58,069 nt of DNA from Geosiphon pyriformis uo1 (Eukaryota; Fungi; Glomeromycota). A program made the position numbers and the translations under genes. The notes beneath the pieces were generated by a model that did no database searches, was not told where the DNA came from, and worked only from the letters and a program-made list of their open reading frames with translations. This document shows, piece by piece, positions 6,862-44,960 of the stretch. The DNA is taken from contig JAAOMT010000088.1 of the NCBI GenBank assembly GCA_016748015.1, positions 157,978 to 216,046 of the forward strand, in the 5' to 3' direction. Each line of letters opens with the position of its first letter. Position 1 is the stretch's first letter.

Positions 6862-7007
6862 CTATTCAAATTCAAATTCAAGGCACTAGATTGCCCTGCG
6901 TATATGTAGTGCTTGATTTTCAATTAAGAACTTTATTAGAAGTTTAGTCTTCCTACCAACTGCACACGACTTCAGGTAGATAATAGTTTTTCAATTCTCC
7001 GCGCATT

Positions 7008-7595
7008 CTAGTTCTTTCTATCGATCAAACATTCTAGCTTTTTTTGCGATTCTGGATTTTCAATTTTTTGCATTCGACGTTCAGCAGCTAAAACCAAAGG
7101 ATTCAATCCAGAACCAAAAGATTCTTGTAATAAAGAACCACCACCTAAACGTTGTCCACCATATGTATCGCTACTTGCAGTTATTTTGCTATGTTTATTT
7201 CCTGCCTTCCGAGTCTTATCATTATTGGCAATGTTTTTCAACCCCTGACCGCGATTTTTTTGAGCTTCTCTATTTGTTGAAGCTTGATGTTGAATCTTAG
7301 CATAAGGAATCTGGGGAGTTTTTTTTTGGTCTTGTTGCCCCTCCCCCCCTTAGAGCCAAATAGATAAGAAAATTACATTATTTTAGTAAAGAGAAGCGGT
7401 TTGAACTTAAAATTTGCACAAAATTCATAATCAGGTTTAATATAGCGTTAAGAATGGCTAAAGAATTATTCAAAAAACCAGTTTTGAAGCGGAAACAAAT
7501 TGCCTAGTTTAAAAAGTGATCAGAGCAATTGATTTACAACTTTGTTGGTTTTGTTGCGTTCGAGCAGAAGGTCGAGTCTGGCGGGTAAAAGACAT
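7008..7595 (-). CDS. Small basic/hydrophilic protein with GQRLGG and AAERR motifs (possible Cdc48/p97-binding motifs); first exon uncertain
   Basis: Open frame from the acceptor near 7349 to TAG at 7008; a compatible first exon MSFTRQTRPSARTQQNQQS ends at a GTAAAT donor. Confidence 0.55.
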
Positions 7596-7705
7596 AACAA
7601 AGTTTTGGAGTTGAAGGAATTTGAAGATGAGATCCATTTATATAAGCCTATGAAATGGAATCTTGCCATCAGCTGTGTGGCTGAGCAAAATTTTCGTCAA
7701 AAACC

Positions 7706-10700: not shown

Positions 10701-10803
10701 AAAGCAAGAACGTGAAAAACGCGCCCGTGGTTATTCTGATGACAAGCCACCTACTGCTTTAGATCGATTTGATAGGGGTTTCACTAAAAAAAGAAAGGTA
10801 TAA
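7706..10803 (+). CDS. UTP7: U3 snoRNA-associated protein Utp7 / WDR46 (WD40 + BING4CT), multi-exon
   Basis: [101 protein letters not shown]-terminal ALDRF; many canonical short introns. Confidence 0.96.
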
Positions 10804-11189
10804 TTTTTCAAGTACTCCAAGGTAAGGACGTTCCAAAATCCTTGTTGGAATTCGCAAAGTTTCAAGTGAAACAAGAGTATTTGGATTCAATTCAGCTGAG
10901 AATTACCTTTGTCACTAATTAGCATTTGAACAGGCAAATAAATCATTTTGACAAATTCTTTTTAATCTGAAAATTTGTTAAAACTTGAAAAAAAAAATTG
11001 TTTTTATGAGTAAATTAATAAATCTAATAATTAATTGTAGAATTAAGAAATTGTTTTTATACATATTTTTTATTGATTTATCGTATTCATTTTTTGTTAT
11101 TAATATATATTATGATAAACCAAAATACACTAACTGTTATACGATAAGATAATTTGGTTTATTATGAGACATAACTAGAACCTAAAAAA

Positions 11190-14059: not shown

Positions 14060-15690
14060 ATTTCTATATATAATAGTATTTTATTGAATATTAAGGTACG
14101 TGAAGAATTATAATTGTTCTTAATAGTTTTAAAATTTGATAAAATTTATTTTAAATATTATAAATTGTTTAGTAAAACCAAAATTATGTTGCTTAATTTT
14201 AAAAGTTTTTTTTAATTTAACTCTTAATTTATTATTAATAAAATATTTGAATTATATTGTTAATTGGCTTTTTAAAATAAAAAAAAATTAGAATTATTAA
14301 TAAAACTTTTTTGTTTAAGTTTTTTAAATTTAATTTTAAATTTAATTTTTTTAATAAATAATAGTATGCTAAAAGCATAATATTTTTAAAAGTTTAAATT
14401 ATTTTTTATAATAAATTTTACAATAATAATAAATATAATTATTATATTTTTTTTTTCAAAATATAAACAGATTTTTATTAATAAAAATTGTTTTTTTGTA
14501 ATTTTTGCATTTAAATAAAATATTAACTAATTTTTTTTTTGGTAATTTTTGTAAATAAAAATATTTTATCTATTAATTAATTTTTTTATTAAAATAATTT
14601 GGTATTTTAAACCAAAAAGTTTTTAATTGTAATTTTGTTTTGTTTTATTTTATTAATTATTAGTTTTTTTCTTAAATTTGAATATTAAGACTTTTTTAAA
14701 TTATTTGTTAAAAGTATTATAAATAATGAATATTCTAATATATTGTTTTTAATATAAAATTTTTGATTTTAATTTATATTGATCTTTAAAACCCAATTAT
14801 TTTTTATAAAGCTTAATATTAAAATACATTTATAATTAAAACTTTATAATTTTATTAACTATAAAAAAAATTGTTTATTTTATTTATTAAAGTCTTTTTT
14901 ATATTATTACTAATAAAAAAACTGTTTAAGTTAATTTGTTTATATTTATTTTTCATATTAAATTATATAATTAATAATTGAAATTATTAATTATATAACT
15001 TAGCATAATATTATTATAATATTATAAATATATTATTAGATTAATATAGTCTCATATTTTAATTTAAAATTATATTGGTATTAAAAAGTTATTTTAGTCT
15101 TAATTTATTAATAATTTAAATTATTTTAGCATTTTTTATGTCACTTAATTTTTTTATTTATAAAATAGTTTATTAAGATATATAAAGATCACATATAAAA
15201 AATAAATTAGCTGTGTTTAGTTTAAAACACTTGTTGTTATATCGTACTAAATAACAGTTGAACCTCACTCATTAAAAAATATATATATATATTAATGTTT
15301 TTTATTGTTAATATTTGTTTTTTTGATAATATTATATTATAGTATAACAAAACTAAACAATATTATCTATTAATAATAATTTTTTTTGGTATAAATCTAT
15401 TAAAAATAATATATAAAAACATTTTAAAAAGATTTATTAAAAATACTTTTTTTGTTCTGTTTAATAAGAAAAAATGCCTTTTTTTTGTTATAATATTTAA
15501 AACAAAAAAAAATTATAAGAAATATTGTTTTTTGTTAAACTTTAAAATTTTATAATCAGTTGTATTAATAGATTTTTTTTATTTTAAACATTATTAAAAG
15601 CATGTAAGATTGTATTAAATTATAAAACAAAAAGCTTTTTACAGTATTTAATGCTTTTTTATTTTTTATTATTAATATTAAAAGAGTATT
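14060..15690. other. Hyper-AT island; probable eroded 5' portion of nuclease-like pseudogene copy 2
   Basis: Near-total loss of G/C; grades into recognisable paralogous coding sequence at about 15690. Confidence 0.7.
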
Positions 15691-16347
15691 AAAAACCATT
15701 CTGTTAAAGAAGTTGAAATTTGCACAATATATATTGATCCAGTTCTTAGTTCAATTCTACAGATTTCAATTACAATGTTTTTTTGTATTGATAAGCTTAT
15801 TGACCTATCATTTTTATTTATGTACTCTCTGAATTATAGAAAAACCGCAAAGTAAATAAAAAAGTGTTCAAGTTCAAGAACAAAAAGTTAACAAGCAGGG
15901 CAAAACAGTCTGATGCATTATAAACAATATTGACCAGTTGCCTTGGGATCTGAGCAGAGAACATGATGAGGTAAAAGTGCAGCCTTTGCACTGATCTCTT
16001 TAGGGTCGCTGTGGTCAACAAAGATGGATTGACTTTTATAGCATATATTGTATGCTTAGATTCTAGGTTGTAGGTAAGATTCACAGTGGTTGAGAATTTT
16101 CTTAATTAAACATACTGAACAAGAGCTCAACAGGATATATTACTATTCTTCTGTAAGACGGCCGCCTACACGTTATAATGGAGATTGGCCATCTTAATGT
16201 AACTATGTCACTTGAGCATCTTCCTGCTTTTCTCACCAGCCTTGAATCCGCTATTGAAATAAAATCAATACCTTCGCTATATCAAATTTTAAAGAGTTAA
16301 TTGCAAACAGTTGGGATCAGCATCGTTCATGCCAATTGCGATTCTAA
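15690..16347 (+). pseudogene. PD-(D/E)xK nuclease-like pseudogene, copy 2 (recognisable 3' part), head-to-head with copy 1
   Basis: Aligns to the reverse complement of about 11190-11945 (gcagggcaaaaca, ttgcactgatctc, cctgcttttctcaccag, ...caattgcgattctaa) with the same intron positions; many indels and stops. Confidence 0.8.
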
Positions 16348-17109: not shown

Positions 17110-17815
17110 ATAGGTGGCTCGAAGCTTATCTGGATATAGTCAATCTTTTCACAATTTTGAGGAAGAACTTCAAAAATTACGAGGATAACAAATGAAAAGG
17201 CTGTTTTTCTCTCGATTAAAATTATTTGACAAAGTTCAATTTGACTGAAAGTAGGGATAGGATCTTTAAGGAGAATAAGATATTATTCATACCACTTTTG
17301 ATATTAATGATACATAACACTCTTCCCAAAAATAGGCTTGAAAAATCATCACAAAATCAATGTTACTCTATCCCGACAAATTCTACCTTGGAAAAATTCA
17401 GACTACTTCACAAGTATGACAATCACCACACAGAGTCTTACATATATATGATGGTTTACAAAAAGTGACTGGGCATAGGGAATAACATTCAACGTAATGC
17501 ACATCGGACTCACACGTAACTGTCTCGCAACGAGTACAAGTTTGTCGATGAAGAACACAGATTGTGCCCGGAGGACACTTTGGGCATAGTTTATAGATCT
17601 GAGGACAAAATATACATTGATCCTTCTTGGGGTTTTCGATGGATTTTTGACCTGAAGGACAAAGGGGTGGCCGATGTGAAATTTGTTGCGCATCGTGGTC
17701 TGTTCCAACAGGTATTTAACTTTAGGTTTTTCCTATTTGAGAGATAACTGAAAAACAAGAATTTTCAAATCATACGTTTACAAGAGTCGGATGCCTTATA
17801 AATCAGTTGAATGAA
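17110..17815 (+). pseudogene. Degenerate coding relic, family not recognised
   Basis: Locally higher GC, coding-like frames (NEYKFVDEEHRLCPEDTLGIVYRSEDKIYIDPSWGFRWIFDLKDKG...) with splice-like GT/AG sites, interrupted by stops and frameshifts. Confidence 0.35.
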
Positions 17816-18289: not shown

Positions 18290-19290
18290 TAATTATTTGA
18301 AAATGTAAGACTAAAAGTTTATCAAATAATTGGATTGATTTTAATTGAGTATATCCATCTAAATATTAAACATTTATATTTAAAAAAAAAAACTTTGATG
18401 CTCTTTAAAATAACCAATTATGCTAACATTTTCTTGGAAAAAAAAAAGTTAAAACAAATATAAAAGAGATTACAGTAAGAGAAATATGAAAACCAAATAG
18501 TTATTCACAGCCAATGAGGTAATATAAATGTAATCAAAAAAAATTCCAAATAAATCTTTGTGCTTAAACCAAAAACTTTTGGCCTAAGAAAACTTTAAGC
18601 GATTAAAAAAACTGAATCTAAATTTCCAAGATAATTATCATTATATTAAGAAAAATAATCCAAATAAACTTAATTCTTCTACTTTATGCTTATATAGTTT
18701 TGTGAGCCAATAGATTTAACATGCAATTATTAACAGTCATTTTTTATCTTTATGTTTTAGATAACATATGTCATTTAAAGATTAAAACTTCACATTGATA
18801 ATCTTGCTTCATATCTTTGAAAAAGCTGTTAAATAAAGTTTGTGTAAAATAAAATTAAATAAATTTACAAGTTGTGTATAAACAAACAGATTTTGATAAA
18901 AATTTTCATTGTTTTGTTATATAAAATTGCAGTATTGAAATTAATCTAAAACAAAGTTTTTTATTTATTAAATAATATTAATTAATGTATGCTAATCCAA
19001 AATAATATTATACTCTTTATTTTATACTTCTACCAAGTTGCAAAGCTTTTTAAATTGGGAGTTTGAGATTTAATTAGATTTATTATAAAATAATTTAATC
19101 AATTAAAATTACTAGCAAATTCTTTTATTAATTTTATGAAATTACATAACATATACAAAAAACAATTATATTTTTTATTTTATATATATATACATTTTTA
19201 CTTTTTACTCTTTCAATATTTATCTAAATCTTTTTAATAGTTTTATTTAGAATATTGTTAATCAATTTGCACATTTTTCTTCTCAAATGA
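18290..19290. other. Hyper-AT island
   Basis: Very low GC with almost no CpG; abuts the left inverted-repeat arm. Confidence 0.55.
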
Positions 19291-19294
19291 TTTC

Positions 19295-19956
19295 AAGTAT
19301 ATGTTTTTTTTTAAAGAGATCTATTATTATTGTTATTATTATTATTATTATTATTAAAATTTGCTTAGAATTAATTCTTAATATTACTAAAATATACAGC
19401 AGGATATTTAAAAGGTTTCTTGTGATTTGCAAATTCATGGTTTTATTTAATAAAAACAATTAAAAAGTGAAAAATACATTGAATCAATTACGCAATAATA
19501 AACACATTATAGCTTTCTTATTCATAATTTGGTATGATATATTGCTAACAAAAGACTTTTTTGCAAACTTTTATTTTTATTTTGAGATAGGTTGTTTTCA
19601 TTATTAATAGCGTTAAACTCTTTCTTTCTAGGAAAGTCGATTCGATGGCATAAAATATATATATTTTTAAAATGAATCAACAAAGACTTTTTTTTCTTGG
19701 GGAAATTATGATCGATCCCATTCACAAAAAGCTTTTGATCAAGTTGAAATATTGGGAAATTTAGACTAGTATAGAAATTTTCTGTTTTAAACTATTTTAA
19801 CTATAAAATCTCTGATTCGCATATTTCTAGTTTGATAAATGGACTCAAAATTTTTAAAACGAAAAGAAATATTATCATGCAACATGTTTTGGTTTAAAAT
19901 TAATCTATAAAGTTCTTTCAAAGAGTAATTGACTTTTTTATTACTTTAAGTTAATC

Positions 19957-20002
<46 letters not shown>

Positions 20003-20210
20003 TAGTGTCAAGTATGCACGATTGGCAAGTATTTTAAAGCATAGTTTTCAATATATATTAAATTTAGATTTCAGTAATTGAGTTCAAATTATTAAAAATA
20101 ATTCTTTGCTTGAAATGTCACTGTGAAAAGATATTTGAATTCTATGATATAATCAACGGATTTACCGGAACAGAAAAGTATGGTTTAAATGTTATAAAAA
20201 GTTAGATCTA
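19295..20210 (+). repeat. Left arm of a ~0.9-kb diverged inverted repeat (partner 28565-29440)
   Basis: For example gtgtcaagtatgcacgattggcaagtatttt at about 20005 is the reverse complement of aaaatacttgccaatcgtgcatacttgacac at about 28717; matches are collinear along the whole arm. Confidence 0.9.
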
Positions 20211-26300: not shown

Positions 26301-26789
26301 TATTGATCAAAAAACCAATTAAACGAAACTTGTTGTGTGATAATAAATTTGTTTAGCATATACATGTATTTATGTTTTATCAATGCTTAAACAAAAGAAA
26401 CGTGTTAATATGAATTGCTGGTTTGGTAAATTGAGTTTTTCTTCTTATTCGAAAATTTGAAAGCTTTATCAGCAAAAATAGAACCCTTTGCTAGATCATT
26501 TTTTTCAAAACATAAGCTCGAAAGCAAAATATTTTGAAATTTTTCGAATAGAATTCTTTATGCTCTTTTAAATACACACAACAAGAGTCAACATTTCTTT
26601 TTAAATCCTAAAACAAAATAAATAATATTTTAATCGAAATTCTCTTATAAAAGTATGTATCAAAATTTTTTAAATGATGATTAGACTTTACTAACTTCAT
26701 ATCTTTTGAAAATATATAAAATTTTTAATAATTCACGCATAATTATTAAAATCTTCAAATTTTAAAAGAGACACACTCGTTCTTTCAAA

Positions 26790-27334
26790 ATGAATAAACC
26801 AAATTTTTTTGTCTCATTTAAGAAATTTATTTTAATGAATTTTTTGATATTATTCCTCGTAATTTTAAATGTTCTAGCGTTTCCTGCCGATCAAAACAGT
26901 AAGTCTCAAGATTTTATCATGATAAAATTACTTTCAAATTTCCCTTTAACATCTAAAAATTTATATCTTTTTTTAAAAACATTATAAATTTAATTAAAGA
27001 ATTGAAATGCTTAATTTGCCCGCGATTCATTCCTCAATGCCCAGTTTGCACCACTAACGAAAAATGCGTTAAAAAAGGCTATTCATGTAAGGCCTGTGCA
27101 TCTGCTAGATGTGTTCCACTAGTTAATAAGGAAGAATCTGGATCCCAAAAATTTGGTGGTGATCTTTGTATTAACCCTGCGTTATGTTACAAAGAACCAA
27201 GCTGTAACCCAAAATCTTGTAATAGTGATGAAGAATGTAGTGTTGTTCAACCCAGTTGTAATAATTGTGCTACCATTAAATGCACCCCTAAAGATTATAA
27301 AAAAGTCAAAATCATGAGATCGTTTGAGCAATAG
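26790..27334 (+). CDS. Small secreted Cys-rich protein with two tandem 8-Cys Opy2-N-like modules; 2 exons (26790 or 26836-26898; 27000-27334)
   Basis: Signal-peptide-like MNFLILFLVILNVLAFP and an in-frame GTAAGT..AAAG intron. Modules: CLICPRFIPQCPVCTTNEKCVKKGYSCKACASARC and CINPALCYKEPSCNPKSCNSDEECSVVQPSCNNCATIKC. Confidence 0.85.
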
Positions 27335-28564: not shown

Positions 28565-29440
28565 CCTGAATTTGAATTTTTATAATATTTAAAGATGCTT
28601 TTCTGTTCCATTCAATCCGTCCATTATCTCATCGAATCCAAACATATTTTGAAAGTGACAATTCAAGTTACCAATTATTGAGATCTCAATTTAATATATA
28701 TTGGGAACTATGATTGAAAATACTTGCCAATCGTGCATACTTGACACAAATTATCATTATCTGATTACTTAAAGTAATAAAAAAAGTCAATTACTCTTTG
28801 AAAAAACTTCATAGATTAGTGTCAAAGCAAACATGTTGCATGATAATATATATCTTTTTATTTTAAAAATTTTGAGTCCATTTATGAAACTGGAAATATG
28901 TGAATCAGATATTTTATATTTGGGAAAAATAATAATTTACAATAGTTTAAAACAGAAATTTCTGTAATAGTCTAAATTTTCTAATATTTCAATTTGATTA
29001 AAAGTTTTTGGTAAATTGGATCGGTCATAATTTCCCCAAGAAAAAGTCTTTTTGTTGATTCATTTTAATAATATATTTTTAGCTATCGAACCTACTTTCC
29101 TAGAAAGAAAGGTTTTAATGCTTATTAATAATAATGAAAACAACCTATCTCAAATAAAAAAAGTCTTTTATTAGGAATATATTATACCAAATTATAGTTA
29201 AAAAAGCTATAATTTTATAATCGATTCAAAAAAGTATTATAGTTCAGTTTGTAACAATTTGTTTTTTTTAAAAGATACGTGATAGGATATCTCTTAAATT
29301 ATAAATCATATCTTGAATTTGCAAAACACAGAAAACCTTTTAAATATTCTACTGTGTTTGTTTTAGTGATACTAAGGATTGATTTTAAACAAAGCTTATT
29401 ATTAATGATAATAAATCTCTTTAAAAAAAAATATATATAC
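28565..29440 (-). repeat. Right arm of the ~0.9-kb inverted repeat (partner 19295-20210)
   Basis: Reverse-complement similarity as above (e.g. cataatttccccaagaaaa vs ttttcttggggaaattatg). Confidence 0.9.
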
Positions 29441-29489
29441 AAATAAACCTCTTTAAATGCACTTCTCTTGTGACTGGTCATGAGAATGC

Positions 29490-31180
29490 ATTTAGAGAAT
29501 TTTGGAGTTAAATTTAAGATTATTTAAGAATAAAATAATAATTGAAACAAATTAAATAAATAATAAGAATTAAAAACAAATTTCTTGTTTAAATTTGAAT
29601 TAGTAACAACAATATTTATTTATATAAAGCTGTTGTATTTAATTCATGTTTTTTCTCAATAAAAATTTTCAAAGTATTTATTAATCTTATTTAATTTACC
29701 ATTAAATCTTAATAATCTAATACTTTTTAATTTTTTAATGCTGTATTATTTTATTCATTTCTTTAGTTTTATATTTACTGCCTAATATATATTTACAAGT
29801 TTTATTAAATTTAATTGAAAAAAGTTAAAATTTTTATTTTTATTGTTTTAAAAAGATTCAAAGCATCAAATATTTTGGTAGATTTATAAACACTTATGTA
29901 TTGTTTGGTGTTAATAAAAATTGTTAATTGTTTCAACAAAGTCTTTTTTAAGCTTAGATTATATATTAGACTGTTTAAAAAAAGTTTATCTTTAAATTTT
30001 GCACTAATTAATTAGCTTTAAGTTGTTTTAACATTTATTTAAAATAATCAAACTTTTAAAACATTGTTGTAAATATTTAAGACTTAAAAAATTTTTCAGT
30101 CTCTTATAAATAAGCTTCAAGTTTTCAAATTCTTAAAATATTATAGTTTTTCAAATTTATGAATTTAATTTATAAGATTATTAAAATTTGTATATAATGT
30201 AATTTGTTTTTTTTTTTACAGCAAAATGCTATATTGCGATTGTTTGATCTGATTTCTAATTAAAAAAAAAAAGTTTGTTTTGTTTATATTATAAATTTAA
30301 TTTAAAAATAAAAATAAAAATAAATTATTTGTTTTATAATTAATTAGAATTTTACAATAGGTTTTTTTTATTAACAAATATTGTTTTTTGATATATTTTG
30401 ATTATTTGGAAAAAATGTAACATATTTTTAAAAATTTTTAACTTTTTTGTTAAATAATTCAGTTTTTTAATTAATATATTTTTTTAAAAAAAATTGTTTA
30501 ATATTAAATAGATTAATATCAATTTTTTTAAAGTTCTAAAATAATATTATATTATAATATTATTTTATATTTAAAGTTTTGTTTTTAATCAATAGTAAAA
30601 AAAAGATACTTTACTAAATTGTAGCTAATATTATATTTAATTTTTATATAATTGTAATTCCATATTATATAATTATACTTAATTGTATTTAATATATTAT
30701 TTATTTTTTATATTTGCAATTTCATATTTAATTAAAAGTTACTTATATATTATTTGGTTAAAAATTTGAGCAATTGTTAACTTAATAATAATAATAATAA
30801 TAATAATAATTTATTTATTTATTTATTTTACATGTTTTTTTTTGGTCTTTTATTGTTACGTATATAAAGACATAATTTGTATTTTTGAAAATTTGTAAAG
30901 TAATTTATTTTTAAATGACATTTAAGATAAAGTAAAGCAACCAAAAAATAATAATTATTTTTATTATTTTTAAAATTCAATAATCTTTTTTGTAAATAAG
31001 TATTACTTAATCATAAAATATGTATATACATTATTTGAAAAAAAATGTACAAATTAATAAACACTTTCTTAATAAAATTTTTTAAAAACTTATAACAAAA
31101 TTTTTTCGAAAAAATTTGAGTTAAGAAAAACAAAAATATACAATTTTAATTTTAATAAAATACAATTTATAAATGATCTT
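29490..31180. other. Hyper-AT island; its right part is probably the eroded 5' portion of the Fanzor relic
   Basis: Extreme AT content grading into recognisable TnpB-like codons at about 31200. Confidence 0.65.
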
Positions 31181-31199
31181 TGCTCAAAGAAAATAAATT

Positions 31200-31445
31200 A
31201 AATACCTAGTTAAAATTTAAGAATGGTAAAGTCAAAAGATTAAAAAATACGATTGGGTCTATGAATTAAAAGATCTTACACTTGCAGGCAGAAATAAATA
31301 GAAAGGCAGTCGCATTTTTCACTTACAAATGTGATGCTATTATCATTCTTGCCTTTGAGATATCAGACATGGTGAATGGAAAAAAGTAAAAATGATATTA
31401 TGCTGGGTAATTATCGATTCGTCAACGTCGGAGTATTACTATTAT
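31200..31445 (+). mobile_element. Fanzor/TnpB-family (IS607-type, Fanzor2-like) RNA-guided nuclease relic, bridge-helix to RuvC-II region
   Basis: KVKRLKNTIGSMN*KILHLQAEINRKAVAFFTYKCDAIIILAFEISDMVNGKK*, then after frameshifts MLG and YRF(R)QR. Matches the remembered pattern I.NL..EVH.K...FL...FD.IIIP.FE.S.MV.......ML.W.HYRFRQRL. Confidence 0.7.
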
Positions 31446-32810
31446 TAATGTGTTACAATCGATCCGAAATATATATTGAAAAATGATTAATCTAAACGAG
31501 TTCCTTAGATAAAACTTCTATTTAAAAAAAAATCTTGAATTCATAAAATTAGATTAAAATATTAAAATTAATTTTAAAGTTGACTATGTATAAAAAATAT
31601 TTTTATTAAAAATAAAAGCTAATTCCTAACTTCTAAAAAATCTGCTAAATTAAAAATATTACGTCTTAAATTTCGTATCACTATAATTGATATAATATAT
31701 TCTGCAAAATTTAAATATCTCTCTATGATACTGTTTCTCATCTTCGAATTATGATTATTTAATTTGCTATCTTATTATGGGATTTCACTGATTAAGCTTA
31801 AAAGTAATTATAACTAATAATTTAGTATGATGTCGTTGAGTTTCATATTGAGCAACCAATTTCTAATTATGGAACAGATTCTAAAGAAATCGACATATTA
31901 TTGGTTGCTATGCTTGCACTATTTACTAAATGGGACAATGAGATTTCAAATTTTCATTGAGGAAAATAAATATAATTTTTAGTATCGAAATTTCCTTTAA
32001 AAAGGAAACTATTTTTGATAATAGATGTGTGATTATTTTAGCTTTGAATATGGATGGATAGTTAAGATAAACAAACGTTCAAGATTTCTAGCCAAGCTTT
32101 GAAAACATCATTTTCTATCAAAAACCCCAAATTTTTTCAAATTTATTTCTGAATACTGAATTCGACAATGAAGAATTTATTTCATTACTGTACATTCTAT
32201 AAAACTTACTTTTAAAGAAAAACTCAAATGATTAATGTTAGTCGAAACAAAATGACTTTTTAAATTCTTATGTAAAGACTACCTCAGTTAAATAATTTTC
32301 AAAATTATCAAACAAATACTTTTATTGTTATTTCTAAAGATTCACATTTCAAAATGTACAAGAAAACTTTAAACATTTTTTTATCAGTATTTTGTACTTT
32401 ACCGTAATCCCTATCGATTATTCGAATAAAGCATCCAAAGATTATATTAATATATTAATTAATATAAAATTTGAATATTTTTAAAAGAATTAACCTTAAA
32501 ATCAATTAAAAAAACCAATTTTCTGCGCCAAAAATTGGGTTTAAAGCTTATTAAAATAAAGTTAGTTTTTAACTATAAATATAAAAAATATATTCAAAAT
32601 TTGAATTATATTTATTATTAGTAATTATTAGTTTTAGTATTATTTATATTTAAAAATATGTTACACGCAAAACATATTTTAACTTAATATGTATGGTTTT
32701 CATAAAATATTTCGAAGATAAAGTTATTAATAGTATAAATATATCTCCGAATAAGAAATAATGAAATGGATAAATAAAAAAAGATAGATAATAAGTTTTA
32801 AATGCTATTG

Positions 32811-32852
<42 letters not shown>

Positions 32853-34073
32853 TAAAATTTTCATTTCTAAAAAATTTATTTAAATTCATTCTTTGATAGC
32901 TTTTCAATAGCAGTGTACAAAATTTAACTCGTAATTCACAAAGAAAATTTATATTTTTTAAGATTTGAAATAAAATGGATTTAATTGTTTAATACTATTT
33001 AAACCAGTAAAAAATTGTTAAATAATCATATATTTTTTTTTATTTTTAATTATTTTTCCAAAATAAAAATCTAATTAGAATTGTAACATGTTTAATTTTA
33101 AAATTATTGACCTTAAATGTGCAATCTGAAAATTAATAATTTTTTAGATTGCATTTTTTATATATTCTTTTTTAAAAAAAAATAAAACTAAATTTTTAAA
33201 AACTCATTTAATTTACAATATATTTCTTTTATCAAATTTAGAAAGTACCAAAAATGATTTGAGCATTAAAAAAATTACTTTTACATAAATAAAATTATTT
33301 TTGATAAAGAAATATTGTGGAATTTTAATTAATTGAAACGAAACTTAAATTTAAAAATTTAGATGTTAAATTTTATATAACAATAAAATTCTCGTCTATT
33401 TGACCCAAGAATTATTGCGTGCTCATAATGTGATCAGTTTTGACAAAAATATCCTAAAATTTATCAAAGTCCTCACTTGAGCGTCAAAGAACTTTTGACG
33501 ACTCTCAAGTAATAAATAAATATTTACGATAAAGATGTATTGAATGACCAGACTGAACATGATTTTTAGTAAATAAATTTACTCTTCCTTTTTTTTTCAA
33601 AAATGCTAAATTTTTCATTTGTTGTTGATCAAATTGATACATTTCGATAGCAAGGGCAGAGGGTTTTCGTTTTACACGATGAAAAAGCATGCTCAAACTT
33701 TAATATTTAAACCCGATATTAGATCAAATAAACAGAACTTGCGCATAAAAGGTCTCGAAAAGTATATTTGATCGGTGGTTTTAAATATGAAGTTATTATT
33801 ACCAAACTATTATCATTTAAAAATACTTATATTAATTACAATAGTTTATTATACATTAGGTTTCTTAAATATTTTATATCGATCATTTCAAATTTCTGAA
33901 TTAGATTTCAATAGGCCTAAACAATAAACAGTAAATAACAAGGGTTTATCAGAATTGGCAACGGGTGAACAATTTTGCCATTGTAAAAACCCTTCCCTGA
34001 TAACTTTGTTATATACTGATAAAGTTTTATTCCTGGACTAGATGGATATAGAAAAGATAATTGACAAATGTGG

Positions 34074-34192
34074 CTACCCCCTCCCGCTCTTCACTCTTGT
34101 AAGAAATCTTAAACTAAAACTACCTCCTCCCGCTCTTCACTCTTGTAAGAAATCTTAAACTACCCCCCTCCCACTCTTTATTCTTGCAAGGC
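34074..34192 (+). repeat. C-rich direct repeat, about 3 copies of a 40-bp core
   Basis: ctaccccctcccgctcttcactcttgtaagaaatcttaaa starting at 34074, 34120 and 34160. Confidence 0.9.
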
Positions 34193-34297
34193 ATAAATAA
34201 CAGACTAACAATTATCAATTCCTCACCACCTAACCCTAAAATTTAATTCAGTTATTTGATGATCGATTGTTCATGATTTTCTATTCCGTATTCATTG

Positions 34298-34626
34298 GCT
34301 ATTTGAATGTTGAATTGCGAATTACTAGTGGGTGATGGTTATTTGAATGTTGAAATCGCGCATTTTTGATGGCCAGTGGTTATTCGAATGTTGAGTTGCG
34401 AATTATTGGTGGGTGGTGGTTATTCGAATGTTGAGTTGCGAATTATTGATGGCTGGTGGTTATTCGAATGTTGAGTTGCGAATTATTGATGGCTGGTGGT
34501 TATTCGAATGTTTAGTTGCGAATTATTGATCGCTGGTGGTTATTCGAATGTTTAGTTGCGAATTATTGTTGGCCGGTGGCTATTCGAATATTTAGTTGCG
34601 AATTATTGGTGGGTGGTGGTTATCCG
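34298..34626 (+). repeat. 40-bp minisatellite, 8 copies plus a partial
   Basis: Unit ggttattcgaatgttgagttgcgaattattgatggctggt with an exact 40-bp period (34378, 34418, 34458, 34498, 34538, 34578). Confidence 0.95.
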
Positions 34627-34637
34627 TCAATTGTTGG

Positions 34638-35190
34638 TGTCAAACTAGAGTCAAGATCAATAGGGTCTTCTTTTCCCGCCGATTTTGCCAAGCCCGTTCC
34701 CTTGGCTGTGGTTTCACTAGATAGTAGATAGGAAGAGTTTAACCCATGATGCACATCAATAACCGTAAGTGGAGCAGACATTCGGCAGAATGTCTGCACG
34801 CAGAGGTATAACAATTCATGTCATTGACCATAAGTGGAAGCAGACATTCGGAAGAACGGGTGCACGCACAGAGGTATAACAATTCATGTCATTGACCGTA
34901 AGTGAAAACAGACATTCGGCAGAATGGGTGCATGCACAGAGGTTAGAGAACACCACACTTGGCGATATAAAGGAGTTGGAAACCCCGTGCTTGGTTGAGT
35001 TTCTTCGGTTAAAGGTTGGGGTTCTTTCCGGTAAAGGATGCCCCCTCCCTCACCCAACACTTAGAGCTAGAAGAGATACGTCAACACCCTTACCTGGATT
35101 GTTCTATCAACTAGAGGCTTTTAACCTTGGAGACCTGCTGCGGTTATCAGTACGACTCGGGGCGAGAATGAACCTCTTAGATTTTTTATT
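34638..35190 (-). pseudogene. Rearranged 28S/LSU rRNA-derived sequence (domain III-IV-V pieces), not a functional rDNA unit
   Basis: Minus strand carries collinear LSU blocks: gtcgtactgataaccgcagcaggtctccaagg..agcctctagttgatagaa (35157-35087), gctctaag, gaagaaactcaaccaagcacgg (35006-34983), and cctatctactatctagtgaaaccacagccaagggaacgggcttggc...gaagaccc...ttgactctagtttgaca (34734-34638), with large internal deletions. Confidence 0.9.
34763..34943 (+). repeat. 65-68 bp tandem repeat (about 2.7 copies) inserted in the LSU-derived sequence
   Basis: Units start at 34763, 34828 and 34896; the first has a perfect hairpin GCAGACATTC-ggca-GAATGTCTGC (34774-34797). Confidence 0.9.
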
Positions 35191-35570
35191 CGTTATTGGT
35201 AAGTTGTTAACGACACTGGTAATTGAGATTTTGGTGTTCCTTGGATTCGTGAGTCGTGATTCGTTAGTCGTTAGTCGTACTGGTTATAGCTGTTGTGTTC
35301 GTGAGTTGGTGGACACCGGTAATTTGTCGTTGGTAGTCGATAAAGGTAAGAGTAATCCTATATAGGATAAAATTTTGCATAAAGGCAGAGAACACCTCTT
35401 TATATATGTTACTGCCTCTAAGTTGTTGATTTCGATATTGGCTGTTTATCAAAAATTACGCGTTTGTATTTCACGCGAAAACAAGAATACAAGGGTGGAG
35501 TTAACTAGACCTTTTTAGTAAATTTGATTCGACGATAACCTCCCTAGTTTTTAAAATGTTAAAAACAAAG

Positions 35571-35632
35571 CGTCACTTTTTGAAACCTTGTAATCAGTTA
35601 ACGTCACTTTTTGAAACCTTGTAATCAGTTAA
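35571..35632 (+). repeat. Perfect 31-bp tandem duplication
   Basis: cgtcactttttgaaaccttgtaatcagttaa twice. Confidence 0.95.
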
Positions 35633-36171
35633 GTACTTTCTGGAAATTATTTTAGAATAAACAACAGTCATGAGGATCCGCGTAATATTAAGCCGATTCT
35701 CATGACTCATTTTTTTTGACTCGACTATCCTAAAATGGCTAAATATAATCAGTATGGGAAATCAAATTCACATCCCCCTTAAAACCGTGAGACCCATTAT
35801 CCAATGTAAATGGTCAGTGATTAAGTACATGGGGTCCATATTTCGTAGTCGAAAACATAATCGGAAGTGCCTCTGATCTAATGTTAGTGTTTCGGCGTCA
35901 CACTGGCATCCCTTCCCTCTTTTGGTTTTATCGTTCATGGAAATAGACCTTTTATTGCGTTATAGGAATACCCCCGTTTTTTAAAGTGTAAATTTTCATA
36001 CTAAATTCTTTTAATTAGCTTATCTATCAAACATCTAGACTATCTATTTTTTGAAATAATTGTGTCATTTAGTTATTCATTAATTTACTTAATAATAAAA
36101 TTGAAAGAAGTTCTTATTTAAATAATAAAGAAAATTTTAATTTTTTATCATTCCACAGAGGATGGCCAAAA

Positions 36172-36676
36172 TTATGCGACCACGTTATTTTTGATGAATT
36201 CAGCTAAAAAAAATATCATGAAGGTTTTGTTTATAATCGATGGCTCTGTGCTATCATATCCGTGTACTTTTGTATAGAAAAATCTATTTCTGAACATACA
36301 ATAGATTGTAATCTTATATTCCAATGTAAATCTGCTATGAATAAAACAGATCATAGGAAACAAGTCAAATTATTAAAATTAAAACATTAAAAAGATTCTT
36401 TTTCCTGAAAATATTTTACATAAGAAAATATCGTTCCATATGATCCCAAAGTTGACACAGCTGGAATTGCGATATTACTGTGGCCTGATTGAAAATCTTT
36501 TGAATCATCCAGAACTTAAAAAGCCCGGAATCATCTTTTTTATTATAAAAATTTAATCGAAAATATGTAATTGCTGCAAATAAAAGCACAATTAATAATG
36601 TTTTTTGTATAAAATCAATAAATACCTTGATTAATTTATGCACAAATAAAAAAAGTGATTTAAAATATATCTGCAT
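36172..36676 (-). pseudogene. Truncated GT34 (GMA12/MNN10-like) glycosyltransferase remnant
   Basis: N-terminal membrane anchor, then NRFFYTKVHGYD (cf. NR..YA..HGY) and PSIINKTF..F.LAEFI (cf. P.I...M..FP.AEWIWWLD); stops before the DxD motif. Confidence 0.45.
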
Positions 36677-37263
36677 ATATTTTCTATAAATACTTTAAAA
36701 ATTGTATAAATCAAAAGACCAAATTTTCAAATAATATTGATTTCGATTTATTAATTAATCAAAAAATGAATCTTTGATTAAAATTAAATTTAGAACTAAT
36801 AAGTAAAAACATATAATAAAAAAAGAAAAAAAGAGCTTTGAATTAAATATTGTAAATTATTCAATAAAAGAAATAAATAGAATTTAGAATAATAAGAAAG
36901 ACATCTGGAAATTTTAAACTATGTCAATTATATTTTTCTGTAAAAAAAAGTTTAAACAACTCAGTTAATAATCAAGTCAACAATTTGTTTTTAAAATAAA
37001 ATATTATTCTGTATAATTAATATATAGTAGGTGAATAAAAAATTAACTATAATATTAATATTGGCCAATTATTGTTAACAAATCTAAGAAGTTTGGTAAA
37101 AAAATTGATTTTTCAATAAAACTTAAAGTGCAAAATATCTTTTCAACAAATAAATTAATGAGGTGATAGTGGAAGGTTGATTAATATAAATTATCTCGTA
37201 AAAAATTTTACTAAAAATGCCCATTGGGCTCGACCAAGATATTTACCACAACCGCCCTCTTGA

Positions 37264-37565
37264 TCATTCTCGTCCGACTTGAGTGGTTTGAGACATGGGT
37301 TTCAATCGCACATAATCAACCATCTAGATAAATAAATAAATTCAAAGATTGGAAATATCTGAGTTTAATTAAACACTGAAAAGTCGGAGCTTTAGAATAC
37401 ATACAAAACCACTTTTCATACGAGATGTATTATGATCGATAATTCTGAAGTCAACATCTCGCCAATAATAGCATGGGCCGGTGCTTTTCGCTACCTCCGG
37501 AGGTTCACTGATGACAAGCTTGACAGGCAACGATGCTCAAACCATTGATCACTATTTGTTGTCAT

Positions 37566-37596
<31 letters not shown>

Positions 37597-38733
37597 ACCG
37601 TCATGTCTATTAGATTTATTGAATCACCGTCTTCCTGTTCCTAATTTCAGCTACATATTGATACTAAGAATTGAAAACAGTTGTTTACAATTGCACAATT
37701 ACCGAAGAATCCAAATAACAGCTTCGAATTTAAGTTATTGCAAAATAGCACGCCGATCAGCTTTGATGCGCCATATAACATGATAAGAGCCTGCTGGAAC
37801 TGATTTAATTGAAGAACGAACCTAGGAAATCGTGCAATAAATTATATTTGTAATGATAGATGGAAAAAATAACCGCGTAAATTCAAAGGAATAATCGTAA
37901 TTCTTACGTCAAACCACCAAACATGGTTCAATCGCGCAATTTTTCCAAATTTACTTTTAATAAAATTAAAAGTTATTAATTTTAATCGAAATTTGGGAGA
38001 GAAATAAATGAAAATAATCACCTCTCTTTATCATTTTCAATTCCCCAATAACCATGGTTTCCAAGCCAAGTAATGCGTCTTTCTTTTGCAACGTAGGATA
38101 TTAGGTTTCCCGCTAAAAACGAGTAATTTGATAGATGTTAATATTATTCCAACGTTATTTCCTTTGATTATATAAATTGGGGAGACAAAAAAAATTACCA
38201 TCTCTTACCCAATTTTTTGTATAATTTACGCCAATCAATTTCTGTTTTTTCCTCATCTATATTTTCATTTATGGTGTTAGAAAAATCCTCTTTTGGATCC
38301 TTTTCAGAACTATTTCGTACATCTTCCTGTTCCTGTTCCTCCTCCTCTTCATCATCACTAGATTTAAAGCTTTGTCCCTTTCCATTCTCTTCATCTCCAA
38401 GATATCTCAAGTCTTTATCTCCAAAACGTAACATAAACATAATAATTATCTTTGGTATGCGAAAACAAGTTTTTGTTAACCTGATTAAAAGCAAAGTTTT
38501 TTGATTAAATTCATAAATTATTTTAAAGTTTTCCTTTGAGATGTACAAGACAAAATTTTTTGAGACATTACTATAGCAACAGAAAAAATGTCTCGCTCAT
38601 TTAACAAGCATAAGATTTTTAACATAATGTCATGTGGTAATCTGGAAAAAATATCCTTATTTCTCGTTATATGAATCTCGATAGTGTCGTCAACCATCGT
38701 CTCGCAAGTATTTTTTCCAGAATCTTGTGACAT
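37264..38733 (-). pseudogene. F-box + PP2 (phloem protein 2-like lectin) domain gene, disabled by two frameshifts and a stop
   Basis: FSRLPHDIMLKILCLLNERDIFSVAI/VNK (F-box), IDWRKLY, ITWLGNHGYW..ES/KFGKIARLNHVWWFD/VRSSIKSVPAGSYHVIWR, QWFEH, KSGF/MVDYVRLKP. Frameshifts near 38440 and 37530; in-frame TAA near 37737. Confidence 0.8.
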
Positions 38734-39327
38734 TCTGTTTTTCAAAGGTATTTTAATTTTAATTTGTGATTGAGAATTATTAATTTTTTTCTTTTTTTGA
38801 TAAAGATTTGGGTTTCGATTGATGTATAATTGTTATGGTGTTGAAAAGTGAGGCTTTAATTGCAATTCTACAAGATATGCATAATTTTAGAATGATGAAC
38901 CATATTTAAATTTCACAATTTATTAGTATTACTGTATGAGGAAAATTCCAATGATTAAGAACTGTTTTGATTATTTCATTTAAAAAATCAATGAATCATA
39001 TCTAATTTTTCTCATTTTAAAAAGGGGACTAGAATTTTTACAATAGTTTTATTCACAGCTTTTTAAAAAAAATTGATCAAAATTTATATGTTCCAAATTC
39101 ATAGTATTTTTGCTTTATTTTATTTCTTAACTGTTAATCAAATTTTAATATATGGTTTATGTTTAATAATATGATATTTTTATTTTTACTTTTATATAGA
39201 TTGATTTTAGAGTTTATTTAACATTGACTTAAACATTATTTATTTTTCAAATAATAAGAAACTACATATAAAATAAATTTTTATTGCTATCATCAAGTTT
39301 AAGTAACAGGAAAATAAAGCCATTTGT

Positions 39328-39504: not shown

Positions 39505-39509
39505 TAACT

Positions 39510-40191
39510 CTAAGCTATAATATTATAACAATTTGTGGATCAGAATGAAAAAGAGAAATTAGAGTAAAGGACAAAGAGATTAAAATTTTACAAAATATAT
39601 ATTTGACTATATATATATTTCGTAATTAAAACAATTACAAGTTTTTTTAAAAAAAATAACAATAGTCAAAATAAAATGTCAGATTTTTTTCAATTGATGA
39701 TTTTGATTCTGAACCAATATTAATCGGTTTTGTGTGTTTCTTAATTAATCGCAAAATTTGTAATTATCTTCAGAAAGATACGAAAACTAAAAAATGAAAA
39801 TATATTTTAAAAATATATTTTAAAGATTTAAATTTGTATTCTATTTTTACTTCAAGTATTTATTTATTTATTTTTGGCCTTTTTTCGCTATAGTTAAAAA
39901 GCTTTTTGTGTCAAAACAAGAATATTAGCACAAGTAAATATCAAAATTTGAAAATGGTTTGAAATTAAAAAATTTATTCTGAAATTTAATAAATGATGAT
40001 AATAGATCACTCAGAGAAAACAATTTTTATACGAGTCTTCCTAACACCTTTTCGGATATGCCAAGTATGTGATAAAAATCTAATATTTCATATCACCTAT
40101 AGCAAAGGTCACGTTTAGTCACGTGTGTCGATAATAACTTGTCGATAACATCTGATTGATATTGTTAATATTAATTTTAATTATAACAATA

Positions 40192-40243
<52 letters not shown>

Positions 40244-41376
40244 TTGATTTGCTCTTAATTTTGTTATTTTTTAAGCTAATAAAGGTTCCTCAAATTGAAA
40301 TCCTTATTCCCACATTGTCATTATATGAATTTTCCTATTATCTTTTCGCGTATTTTTTATCTTTGCTCTTCTATTTCTATTTATTCATTTGTTTGTATAT
40401 TTATTTAAGATGTCTGTTCTTTAAACTACTTTATGTTCTCACTTATAACGCTGTCTCTTATACACATCTAAGCTATAATATTATAACAATTTGTGGATCA
40501 GAATGAAAAAGAGAAATTAGAGTAAAGGACAAAGAGATTAAAATTTTACAAAATATATTTGACTATATATATTTCGTAATTAAAACAATTACAAATTTTT
40601 TAAAAAAAAATAACAATAGTCAAAATAAAATGTCAGATTTTTTTCAATTGATGATTTTGATTCTGAACCAATATTAATCGATTTTGTGTGTTTCTTAATT
40701 AATCGCAAAATTTGTAATTATCTTCAGAAAGATACGAAAACTAAAAAATGAAAATATATTTTAAAATTATATTCTTTTAAAGATTTAAATTTGTATCCTA
40801 TTTTTACTTCAAGTATTTATTTATTTTTGGCCTTTTTTCGCTATAGTTAAAAAGCCTTTTGTGTCAAAACAAGAATACTTGCACAAATAAATATCAAAAT
40901 TTGAAAATGGTTTGAAATTAAAAAATTTATTCTGAAATTTAATAAATGATGATAATAGATCACTCAGAGAAAACAATTTTTATACGAGTCTTCCTAACAC
41001 CTTTTCGGATATGCCAAGTATGTGATAAAAATCTAATATTTCATATCACCTATAGCAAAGGTCACGTTTGGTCACGTGTGTCGATAATAACTTGTCGATA
41101 ACATCTGATTGATATTGTTAATTTTAATTTAAATTATAACAATACATTATTATTTTTATTATTATTATTTTGATTTGCTCTTAATTTTGTTATTTTTTAA
41201 GCTAATAAAGGTTCCTCAAATTGAAATCCTTATTCCCACATTGTCATTATATGAATTTTCCTATTATCTTTTCGAGTATTTTTTATCTTTGCTCTTCTAT
41301 TTCTATTTATTCATTTTTTTGTATATTTATTTAAGATGTCTGTTCTTTAAACTACTTTATGTTCTCACTTATAACG
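39510..41376 (+). repeat. ~0.93-kb direct duplication (39510-40450 / 40468-41376), probably an assembly artefact
   Basis: Near-identical copies differing by SNPs and microsatellite length, joined exactly by an adapter sequence. Confidence 0.9.
40451..40469 (+). other. Nextera/Tn5 mosaic-end adapter contamination
   Basis: Exact CTGTCTCTTATACACATCT. Confidence 0.98.
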
Positions 41377-43019: not shown

Positions 43020-44960
43020 ACTGTATATTTATAATTTCAAGGTAAAAAAATTATCAAGTAAAACATAAAATAACAACAATTGTATTATTTTGTTAACAAT
43101 ATTATAAGTAATTTTGTTGAATTATATTCTGTAATTTTGTGGTAATATCTTTCTATAATATCTGAAAGTTTTTTGTTTAGAGTTTTTTGTATAAAAAACA
43201 AAAATTTAATAATTTAATGACTTTTAATACTTAATGTCTTACTTTCTTAACATAATAACTGGTTTATTCTGGTATTTTTGACTCTTTTAATAAGCTATTA
43301 AATTTTTTATAAGTTAACCTTACGCTTTAATTTTGTGTTTTTTATGAAACTATTCTTAATATTATAATATTAATGCTTATTATTTTTAATTAATTCAACA
43401 ATAAAATAAACAACAACAGAATGAAATTAAAAAATTAGTATTTTATTAATAACTATAATTAAAAGCTATTAGTTTAATTCGGTAAAGTTCATAAATTTAT
43501 GCTTTTGATATCTGTTGTTTTAAAAGCAATATAAATAAAATGAGCATTTAATAATAATAATAATAATAATTTTTTATTACATATAAAAAACAATTTATAT
43601 ACTTTTTATATATAACTAGTTATTTAACCCAGTTAAAATTATACTAATTAACCACATAAAATACTGAATTAAAAGCCAAACTATCTAATTTTTGTAACTT
43701 CAAAAATATTATATTTTTGATATAATATGAACTTTTTTAAATTTTACATAATAAACTATAAAATAATATTTTAAAAAACGATATTAATTGATTATTAAAA
43801 ATTTAAAAATTAAATTAAAAAAACATGATAATATTATTTTTAATATTTTCTTCTATTATTATTAATCTCATATTATGTTTTTTTTTCAAATTTTTTATTA
43901 ATTTTTTTAATTCATTCAAATTATACTTTTGAGTTTTAAAATTTTTAACTTTGTAAAAATAATAATAATAATATATAAAATCAAAAAAAAATATATATAA
44001 ACTAAAATTTGTTTTTGCTTAATTTTAGAAATTATTGTTTTTAAATTGTATAAAATCAGTATTAACATGCAAATAATATCAACATAATTATTAGAAATTT
44101 TTTTTAAATATTATTATAAATTTTGAATAAAAAAAATTTATATGTAACTTATAAATTTATTTAATTTTATTTTACATTAACCTAATTTAACAGCTTTGGA
44201 AATATAAAGTTAAATTAACAATATGTAGTTTTGATTTTTACATAACATAAATTAAAAACAAATAACTGTTAATAATTATATATTTAATTTACGTATTTTA
44301 CAAAACCAAATAAGTATAAAGAACAAATATTAAAATTATTAAAAATTTCGATTCAAATTTTTCTAGTTTTAAAGACCAAAAGTGATATATTTTTAATATT
44401 ATTTTATTGTTTATTAAAAACTGTTTAACTTTTATTTTATTTTTTATTGTAAATTTTGTTCTGTTTAATAATATTTGTGTGATTAATTATTTTAAGTATT
44501 TTTTAATATCAACATTATTTAAATACTTAGTTTAATTATAAAATTATTTTTATAAAACTTAATTAGCATTTATAAAATTGAAATTTTTTGGTTATTTTAC
44601 ATACTAAACAACTTTAAATTTTGAATTGAATTTAAGATATACTTTTACATTTATTAATTGTTTTAAAAGTTTTTTTTTTTTTTTAATATAAATAAGTCAA
44701 CTTTAACATTATAAAATAAACCAAAAATTAAATGAAAATACAATAAAAACTTATTTTTTCTTGGCTAAAATTTCTTCAGTTTTAAAAATAATTAATTTAG
44801 TCCTTTTAGTAGATATAAAAGCAGAAAAATGATTTGTTAACTTGCAAGCTAATATTTGCCAACAAAAATTGTATTTTGGAGATTTTTGATTTTTTGCAAG
44901 GTTTCTAAAATCTTTTGTAAATATTTTTAAACAATAATATCATTTTCAAATTTTACTTAT
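43020..44960. other. Hyper-AT island
   Basis: Extreme AT content; residual C/G mostly in ApC/GpT contexts. Confidence 0.7.

What the first reader, a model, noticed from the sequence alone, without database searches (positions are those of the whole stretch)
34638..35410. Mini-28S element: edited LSU rRNA core with an upstream TATA-like box and repeat tail
Seen: collinear LSU pieces in which the two blocks flanking domain IV are well conserved while the interior (ES27 region, H69) is deleted or scrambled. A TATATAAAG lies about 220 bp upstream on the same (minus) strand (35406-35397), minisatellites lie downstream, and the whole 34-36 kb block is GC/CpG-richer than its flanks. Such uneven decay is not expected from simple neutral rDNA drift. 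Inference: an rRNA-derived non-autonomous mobile element (SINE-like or captured), or an rRNA-mimic/decoy ncRNA. The span covers the R1/R2 and homing-endonuclease target region. Caveat: I saw no compensatory changes in the H61 pairing.
Basis: partly seen in the sequence, partly recalled or inferred. Interest (0 to 1): 0.78.

Follow-up and report, generated by a model that had tools for sequence, protein, structure and literature searches.

The report
Spliced non-coding RNA from 28S fragment
In what is likely a mycorrhizal-type fungus, a repeated 4-kb DNA unit carries a piece of the large ribosomal RNA gene that family members transcribe and splice so that the ribosome's central domain drops out as an intron, and the two ribosomal ends kept in the RNA are likely under selection, which would be an undescribed way of recycling ribosomal RNA into a non-coding gene family.

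Summary
The 28S pieces are real and collinear. Blocks 35156-35087 and 34738-34638 are 89% and 92% identical to a genuine LSU, while the normally invariant H69-H71 interior is deleted, duplicated or about 75% identical. The explanation is splicing. Two runs shown to be RNA cover only about 33,900-35,370, starting roughly 30 nt below the TATATAAAG. Their contigs join one CAG|GTAAGG donor (35094/35093) to several acceptors, including CTAG|TGAAACC (34717/34716). The DNA run shows none of the listed joints. The scrambled interior is therefore a 377-nt intron, and the conserved blocks are exon ends plus splice signals. In DNA the whole ~4.1-kb unit, with intron and 1.7 kb upstream, has at least about 14-16 copies. 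That argues against a SINE; no B-box, TSD, TIR or LTR ends were found. Best reading: a DNA-amplified, likely Pol II, non-coding RNA family whose rRNA-derived exons are constrained. Against a strict rRNA mimic: some expressed variants delete H72, and the spliced core folds no better than shuffles. Function, relatives and expression of this very copy are untested. No precedent turned up in 9 literature searches.

The parts
33020..37130 (.). Multicopy ~4.1-kb unit (ends approximate, to within one 333-nt bin)
   Evidence: DNA run X1: bin depth 84 at 32670-33003, 1,000-13,000 across 33004-37345. Single-copy contigs have depth 69-76; single unitigs inside have 994 and 1,149, about 14-16x
35420..37130 (-). 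Upstream, untranscribed part of the unit; holds a 31-bp duplication (35571-35639) and AP-1-, CRE- and MCB-like motifs (motifs recalled, untested)
   Evidence: Amplified in DNA; RNA depth 0-12; repeats; motif scan
35398..35406 (-). TATA box TATATAAAG, likely Pol II core promoter
   Evidence: Sequence; an X2 RNA contig ends at 35368 and RNA depth falls from 500-900 to 0-12 in the next bin
35094..35368 (-). Exon 1 (about 275 nt, no ATG); A/C-rich leader followed by 28S block A
35087..35156 (-). 28S block A (end of domain III, H60, 5' strand of H61; helix names recalled), ending in the donor CAG|GTAAGG at 35094/35093
   Evidence: 88.6% to L007 1549-1618; Rfam alignment; four RNA joints or loose ends share this donor
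34717..35093 (-). 377-nt GT-AG intron = decayed LSU domain IV
   Evidence: X2 loose end before 35094 equals window 34702-34716 exactly; listed joints have depth 0 in X1
34984..35010 (-). H68-region remnant inside the intron
   Evidence: 22/27 to L007 1913-1939, 0 of 500 shuffles
34762..34943 (-). 68-bp tandem repeat x2.7; its last unit overlaps the H71 remnant; holds an alternative 27-nt mini-exon (about 34896-34870)
   Evidence: X2 joints 34896->35093 and 34716->34870 (CT..AC on +); the mini-exon's acceptor is not AG in this copy
34739..34786 (-). H71-region remnant with a branch-point-like TTAAAC at its end
   Evidence: 33/45 aligned, p=0.002
34638..34738 (-). 28S block B: pyrimidine tract and acceptor (34738-34717, intronic), then exonic H72 and 5' strands of H73-H75 (34716-34638)
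   Evidence: 92.1% to L007 2478-2578
33918..34716 (-). Exon 2 (RNA cover ends at 33918 in X2, about 33796 in X3); only short ORFs, 24 aa or less from an ATG
34296..34623 (-). 40-bp minisatellite x8.2, transcribed, copy number varies among family members
   Evidence: back-going joints
34074..34190 (-). 46-bp repeat x2.7, transcribed

Best explanation
This is one copy of a multicopy ~4.1-kb unit whose family makes a spliced ~1.1-kb RNA with no long reading frame, likely from a TATA-box Pol II promoter, in which a captured 28S rRNA segment supplies both splice sites so that domain IV is removed as an intron and the flanking rRNA pieces are joined; the unit likely spread as DNA and the joined rRNA pieces are likely kept by selection on the mature RNA. 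Shown: 28S origin, multicopy DNA including intron and upstream region, RNA cover limited to TATA+30 down to about 33,900, GT-AG joints sharing one donor, exon-versus-intron difference in decay. Inferred steps: (1) a ~0.6-kb 28S piece landed downstream of a Pol II promoter; (2) near-consensus sites already in 28S (AG|GUAAG in the Rfam consensus; UUAAC...CUAG) were used by the spliceosome and then sharpened; (3) the intron lost about 200 nt and gained a 68-bp triplication; (4) the unit was amplified by DNA-level duplication or passive transposition. The likeliest role of the retained pieces is as a protein-binding or stabilising module (H60, H72, perhaps a new helix between two orphaned strands) ahead of a repeat-rich tail; this is untested.
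For: X2 and X3 are RNA: both join across CT..AC introns of the neighbouring F-box-like gene (37819->37906, 37953->38022), where X1 shows 0. They come from two studies and both lose cover between 35,320 and 35,420 while DNA goes on. Four RNA junction forms share the donor at 35094/35093 (X2 to 34716 as a loose end in 3 contigs; X2 to 34896; X3 to 34689 and 34693), and a second GT-AG joint uses the 34717 acceptor. Conserved blocks end 7 nt past the donor and begin 22 nt before the acceptor. All 18 loci with full context have an AG-containing 10-nt stretch between the branch-like TTAAC and the acceptor; it is deleted here, and two changes lengthen the pyrimidine tract. At 34656 every contig laid in X1 and X2 carries the rRNA letter rather than this copy's. 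No ATG in the first 628 nt of the spliced RNA (shuffle P 0.0025; 0.037 for the 355 non-repeat nt). No Pfam family passes its cut-off in 18 ORFs from 32.6-36.7 kb. The host looks glomeromycotan: 65% to an Acaulospora morrowiae protein, the only other hit among 7 candidates.
Against: Only contigs were available, so start, end, strand and level are indirect; strand rests on GT-AG. The main joint is seen only as a 15-letter loose end, joint tables were cut (58 and 48 rows not shown), and intron-less DNA copies are not excluded. Exon 1 and the intron end in similar letters (7 of 9), so template switching could mimic the main joint. X3 variants delete most of H72 (depths 1,092, 615, 371). The spliced core is not more stable than shuffles (z +0.6). 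This copy carries several changes at conserved rRNA positions, and it is not shown to be among the expressed copies. The host's own 28S was not available. No mobilisation signature was found, so the spreading route is a default.
Confidence: 0.55

Rival explanations
1. The unit is a non-autonomous retroelement, for example a long solo LTR (U3 37.1-35.4 kb, R = the RNA, U5 33.9-33.0 kb) or a Penelope-like intron-keeping element. The rRNA pieces would tether its RNA to ribosomes to catch a reverse transcriptase, as Alu does through SRP proteins (recalled).
For: Promoter, start and poly(A)-like signals lie inside one repeated unit. Summed DNA depth rises toward the 3' part, from about 3,000 to about 13,000. 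Selection on the RNA would explain the exon bias. Unchecked notes report active Gypsy elements and RNA capture in this genome.
Against: 0 TG..CA end pairs with a 4-6-bp TSD in the boundary zones, against a background mean of 0.54. No direct or inverted match above background (10 nt versus median 11). An efficiently spliced intron should be lost in copying through RNA, yet intron depth in DNA matches exon 1. No hammerhead core and no RT remnant. The 3' rise coincides with the tandem repeats, which inflate summed depth.
Confidence: 0.22
2. A functionless rDNA fragment inside a duplicated promoter-bearing repeat. Transcription and splicing are by-products, and the blocks stay rRNA-like because only the indel-free parts can still be converted by real rDNA, or because they are younger than the interior.
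For: Cryptic splice sites pre-exist in 28S. Family members differ by 5-10% or more, with transitions dominating (173 of 304 listed places in X1 are C>T or G>A). H72 is lost in some expressed forms. AM fungi have few, dispersed rDNA units (10.1101/2020.05.14.095489, passages).
Against: Conserved-block edges coincide with the splice signals. Derived changes favour splicing. RNA unitig depth in exon 1 (3,977) is well above the neighbouring gene's (278-658) in X2, though depth is a poor measure. ATG is depleted.
Confidence: 0.18
3. A classical rRNA-derived SINE (SINE28-like), or an assembly chimera.
For: rRNA-derived part followed by a repeat tail; multicopy.
Against: 4 kb long, intron and upstream region in DNA, no B-box, no tRNA, a central rather than 3'-end piece of LSU. 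DNA and RNA contigs bridge the leader/28S and 28S/tail junctions (X1 34808-35187, X3 35131-35325, X2 34616-34722), although no single contig spans the whole unit.
Confidence: 0.05

Closest known systems
SINE28 of mammals (Longo et al. 2015, PMC4994717; passages read)
   Same: Dispersed repeat containing a 28S rRNA fragment followed by a repeat tail; transcribed
   Different: SINE28 is under 700 bp, comes from the LSU 3' end, is Pol III-made, and has an A-rich tail and TSDs. This unit is ~4.1 kb, takes the centre of LSU, is spliced, and carries its upstream region
rDNA-bearing TEs: SINE3, Cassandra and Ajax TRIMs (5S), Pokey/mPok (IGS) (review PMC10946416; section 11 and passages read)
   Same: rDNA module built into a repeated, apparently non-autonomous unit
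   Different: Those mostly borrow the 5S Pol III promoter. The review's Table 2 lists no fungal case and no spliced 28S case. No TIR or LTR was found here
28S/LINE-1 chimeric insertions (PMC13174262; passages read)
   Same: Internal 28S fragments (median 269 nt) copied into the genome in sense orientation; a plausible route of capture
   Different: One-off insertions attached to L1, not an amplified, spliced family
Dispersed, non-tandem rDNA of AM fungi (10.1101/2020.05.14.095489 and PMC13443276; passages read)
   Same: Dispersed rDNA-related loci at about 10-20 copies in the same fungal group
   Different: Those are full 18S-5.8S-28S units; here only ~0.4 kb of LSU remains, and no other rRNA piece was found in 33.4-36.4 kb
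Spliceosomal introns inserted in fungal rRNA genes (recalled, not looked up)
   Same: Spliceosome acting on rRNA sequence
   Different: There a foreign intron is removed to restore rRNA; here rRNA sequence itself has become the intron

Membership tests
SINE / SINE28 | Short (<700 bp) unit | tested here: not met
   Repeated unit is about 4.1 kb
SINE / SINE28 | Internal Pol III promoter | tested here: not met
   No B-box match to two recalled patterns, no tRNA; the RNA is spliced and starts below a TATA box
SINE / SINE28 | TSD and A-rich tail | tested here: inconclusive
   Longest direct match 10 nt versus background median 11; unit ends known only to within a bin
SINE / SINE28 | Derived from the LSU 3' end | tested here: not met
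   Model positions about 1835-2440 of 3401
LTR retrotransposon (solo LTR, TRIM, LARD) | TG..CA ends with short inverted repeat and 4-6-bp TSD | tested here: not met
   0 candidates in 32950-33340 x 37010-37260; would be missed if the ends are decayed or lie outside these zones
LTR retrotransposon (solo LTR, TRIM, LARD) | Other copies occur as paired LTRs around an internal region | not testable with these tools
   No genome held
TIR DNA transposon / MITE | Terminal inverted repeats | tested here: not met
   Best score 43 versus shuffle maximum 51; only 9-10-nt A/T matches
Helitron | 5' TC, 3' hairpin plus CTRR, no TSD | not tested
   Needs base-exact ends from aligned copies; looked at by eye only
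Penelope-like element | RT/GIY-YIG partner, pseudo-LTR, often a hammerhead ribozyme | tested here: inconclusive
   No hammerhead core, no Rfam ribozyme, no RT remnant; a partner elsewhere cannot be sought
rDNA pseudogene (orphon) | Single copy, untranscribed, even decay | tested here: not met
   Multicopy, family transcribed, exon/intron Fisher p=0.005
Spliced Pol II long non-coding RNA | GT-AG intron removed in RNA and present in DNA | tested here: met
   (contigs only)
Spliced Pol II long non-coding RNA | No protein-coding frame | tested here: met
   Longest ATG-ORF 24 aa, longest stop-free run 58 aa in this copy's spliced form; other copies not seen
Spliced Pol II long non-coding RNA | Cap, poly(A) tail, Pol II dependence | not testable with these tools
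   No raw reads among the 4 runs listed
rRNA structural mimic | Native helices kept with covariation | tested here: inconclusive
   H60 and H72 hairpins predicted in this copy (pair probability 0.96 or more for the core pairs), H61 broken, z +0.6; H72 deleted in X3 variants; no alignment of copies available

The most novel reading that the evidence does not exclude
A host gene family of abundant 'mini-28S' RNAs, in which the spliceosome excises domain IV and joins the domain III/0 flank to the H72-H75 flank to form a new rRNA-like module (a predicted 8-bp helix between two strands orphaned from their native partners closes it). The module binds ribosomal or assembly proteins and so tunes ribosome supply in a fungal group that has very few rDNA copies; alternative mini-exons and H72-less isoforms diversify it.
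Probability: 0.2. Interest if true: 0.88.

Novelty: new variant of a known kind. Interest (0 to 1): 0.66.

Why it matters
rRNA-derived repeats known so far mainly borrow a Pol III promoter or are retrocopies. Here rRNA itself has become exon and intron in an amplified, expressed unit, a clear natural case of turning the most conserved part of 28S into an intron. If the exons are under selection, it offers a testable rRNA-mimic RNA in AM-type fungi, whose low, dispersed rDNA copy number is an open puzzle. In practice such copies (at least 14-16) could also confuse rDNA copy-number estimates, LSU primers in this region, and rRNA filtering of RNA-seq.

Tried and rejected
No whole genome is held, so copies could not be aligned. 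No second copy lies in the window. Exact-motif scans found nothing: viral contigs 0 in 3 scans with element motifs or a 28S motif and metagenome contigs 0 in 2 scans; these are blanks, not absence in relatives. The run search listed no holder on record as RNA; X2 and X3 were shown to be RNA only by their splice joints. X4 gave only 12-15 short pieces and was not used. Earlier-finding look-ups by sequence, by words (45) and by place with rRNA words (46) were empty. CpG enrichment was rejected. TIR, TSD and LTR ends were not above background. R2 target, B-box and hammerhead motifs were absent. No 28S homology was found in the leader, the tail or the first two 68-bp units (p 0.43-0.94). The + strand 161-aa stop-free frame has no Pfam match. 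The second Fisher test used a miscount (55/75) and was redone (55/72). Only 2 of 17 listed C>T/G>A places are CpG, so no methylation claim is made. Literature: 9 searches, read as listings; one search was swamped by 'sinensis'. None listed a spliced 28S-derived repeat in fungi. Most subscription papers and Repbase are not covered, and no supplements were opened. PMC5786205 and PMC4494074 (passages) added nothing beyond a mention of SINE28 and R2.

Full report
Setting. The window is AT-rich eukaryotic DNA with intron-bearing genes (F-box-like, Opy2, ankyrin and GRHL1_C matches). A LYR-motif protein at 4610-4936 has one other hit among 7 candidates, 65% identical, from Acaulospora morrowiae, so the host is likely a glomeromycotan fungus. 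No whole genome is held.

Observation. Rfam's eukaryotic LSU model matches 34600-35260 on the minus strand at 111 bits. I fetched 20 loci with genuine eukaryotic 28S that lie in prokaryote assemblies (20 of about 121 stretches) and used L007, a near-complete LSU with a group I intron, as reference. Block A (35156-35087) is 88.6% and block B (34738-34638) 92.1% identical. Of 10 segments tested against 500 dinucleotide shuffles, two interior ones were significant and collinear: 35010-34984 and 34786-34739. The decay is uneven beyond the inherent conservation of rRNA. The H71 piece is 46/46 among real LSUs but 33/45 here, and H69 is gone, whereas exon block B (74/79) is as close to L007 as real LSUs are (73-79/79). 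Fisher p=0.005 for exons versus the best intron pieces. Helix names are recalled. TATA box, repeats and raised GC are present; CpG o/e is not raised.

Copy number. Three of 4 listed runs hold the stretch, from 2 studies. In X1, contigs with 0 differences cover 29330-32643 at depth 69-76, and depth jumps to 1,000-13,000 from about 33.0 to 37.1 kb. Summed depth is no copy number, but single unitigs of 350 and 277 nt have depth 994 and 1,149, about 14 and 16 times single copy; this is a floor. The upstream 1.7 kb, the intron and 0.8 kb downstream are all amplified. The left flank is single-copy and the right neighbour, an F-box-like gene, is at 2.4-5.4x, so the unit is not tandem here. Members are diverse: of 820 contigs laid, 160 are 99%+ alike and 162 are under 90%.

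Transcription. X2 and X3 join across introns of the F-box-like gene where X1 does not, so they are RNA despite their labels. On the unit they cover only about 33,800/33,918 to 35,370. An X2 contig ends at 35,368, 30 nt below the TATA box, and the next bin has depth 12 in X2 and 0 in X3, against 5,031 in DNA. By the tool's own standard this edge is a weak hint, and the loose-end table was cut.

Splicing. Three X2 contigs leave the window at 35094 and continue with letters identical to 34716-34702. This removes 377 nt from GTAAGG to CTAG. X2 also joins 34716 to 34870 with CT..AC ends and 34896 to 35093. X3 joins 35094 to 34689 and 34693 through short inserts that read as exon-2 starts lacking most of H72. 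All listed joints of this kind have depth 0 in X1. One donor, several acceptors and GT-AG ends indicate splicing and fix the strand as minus. Caveats: cut tables, short sides (15-29 letters), similar letters at the two ends of the main joint, and a mini-exon acceptor that is not AG in this copy. Compared with 18 real LSUs, the element has lost an AG-bearing 10-nt stretch after the branch-like motif and gained pyrimidines. The donor reads CCAG|GTAAGG, where L007 has GTGGATAAGG and the Rfam consensus GUAGgUAAGG. The host's own 28S was not available to polarise these changes.

The RNA. The spliced form of this copy is about 1,074 nt, has no ATG in its first 628 nt, and its longest ATG-ORF is 24 aa. 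Folding predicts the H60 and H72 hairpins and an 8-bp helix between the start of block A and the H73 strand (pair probability 0.78-0.98), but the core is no more stable than shuffles (z +0.6), and covariation could not be tested.

Mechanism. Retention of intron and promoter points to DNA-level amplification, but no TIR, TSD or LTR ends were found, so the vehicle is unknown. A purely DNA-mobile passenger would decay evenly. The exon bias therefore needs selection on the RNA (host function, 0.55 as framed; or retro-mobility, 0.22) or conversion by real rDNA (0.18). The H72-less isoforms argue that no single rRNA helix is indispensable.

Comparison. It resembles SINE28 and other rDNA-bearing repeats in origin (PMC4994717, PMC10946416; passages and section 11) but fails the SINE tests for size, promoter and region. 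It meets the tested features of a spliced non-coding RNA family. Nine searches listed no spliced 28S-derived repeat in fungi; the library lacks most subscription papers. Verdict: real, multicopy, transcribed and spliced at family level; a new variant of rRNA-derived repeats; function open.

Noticed in passing
window 39509-40450 and 40467-41376: Head-to-tail duplication, 94% over 945 nt, between two N gaps; possibly an assembly artefact.
   Followed up: no
window 19339-20200 vs 28577-29414; 11347-12068 vs 15581-16245; 18663-18882 vs 44137-44340: Old inverted repeat pairs at 67-72% identity, likely decayed transposons or paralogues.
   Followed up: no
window 37064-38832 (-): F-box-like gene directly upstream of the unit, same strand, at 2.4-5.4x depth and expressed. 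Two RNA joints (37641->37713, 38114->38211) do not fit GT-AG in this copy and may come from paralogues; its 3' end overlaps the unit's approximate edge.
   Followed up: partly
window 35250-35280 (-): 7-nt micro-repeat with branch-point-like ACTAAC in exon 1; contigs in X1, X2 and X3 carry one more unit.
   Followed up: no
window 33940-33994 (-): Predicted long hairpin near the RNA 3' end (-16.5 kcal/mol for 88 nt, no shuffle test).
   Followed up: partly
window 33400-36400, run X1: C>T and G>A make up 173 of 304 listed differences from this copy, mostly outside CpG (2 of 17 checked).
   Followed up: partly
window 26766-27334 (+) and 17398-17715 (-): Small Cys-rich, probably secreted proteins; the first has two Opy2 repeats.
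   Followed up: no
L001-L020; L007 2058-2400; L001 3751-4171: About 121 stretches in the prokaryote genome collection carry eukaryotic 28S, likely contamination; L007 and L001 have group I introns in the LSU.
   Followed up: partly
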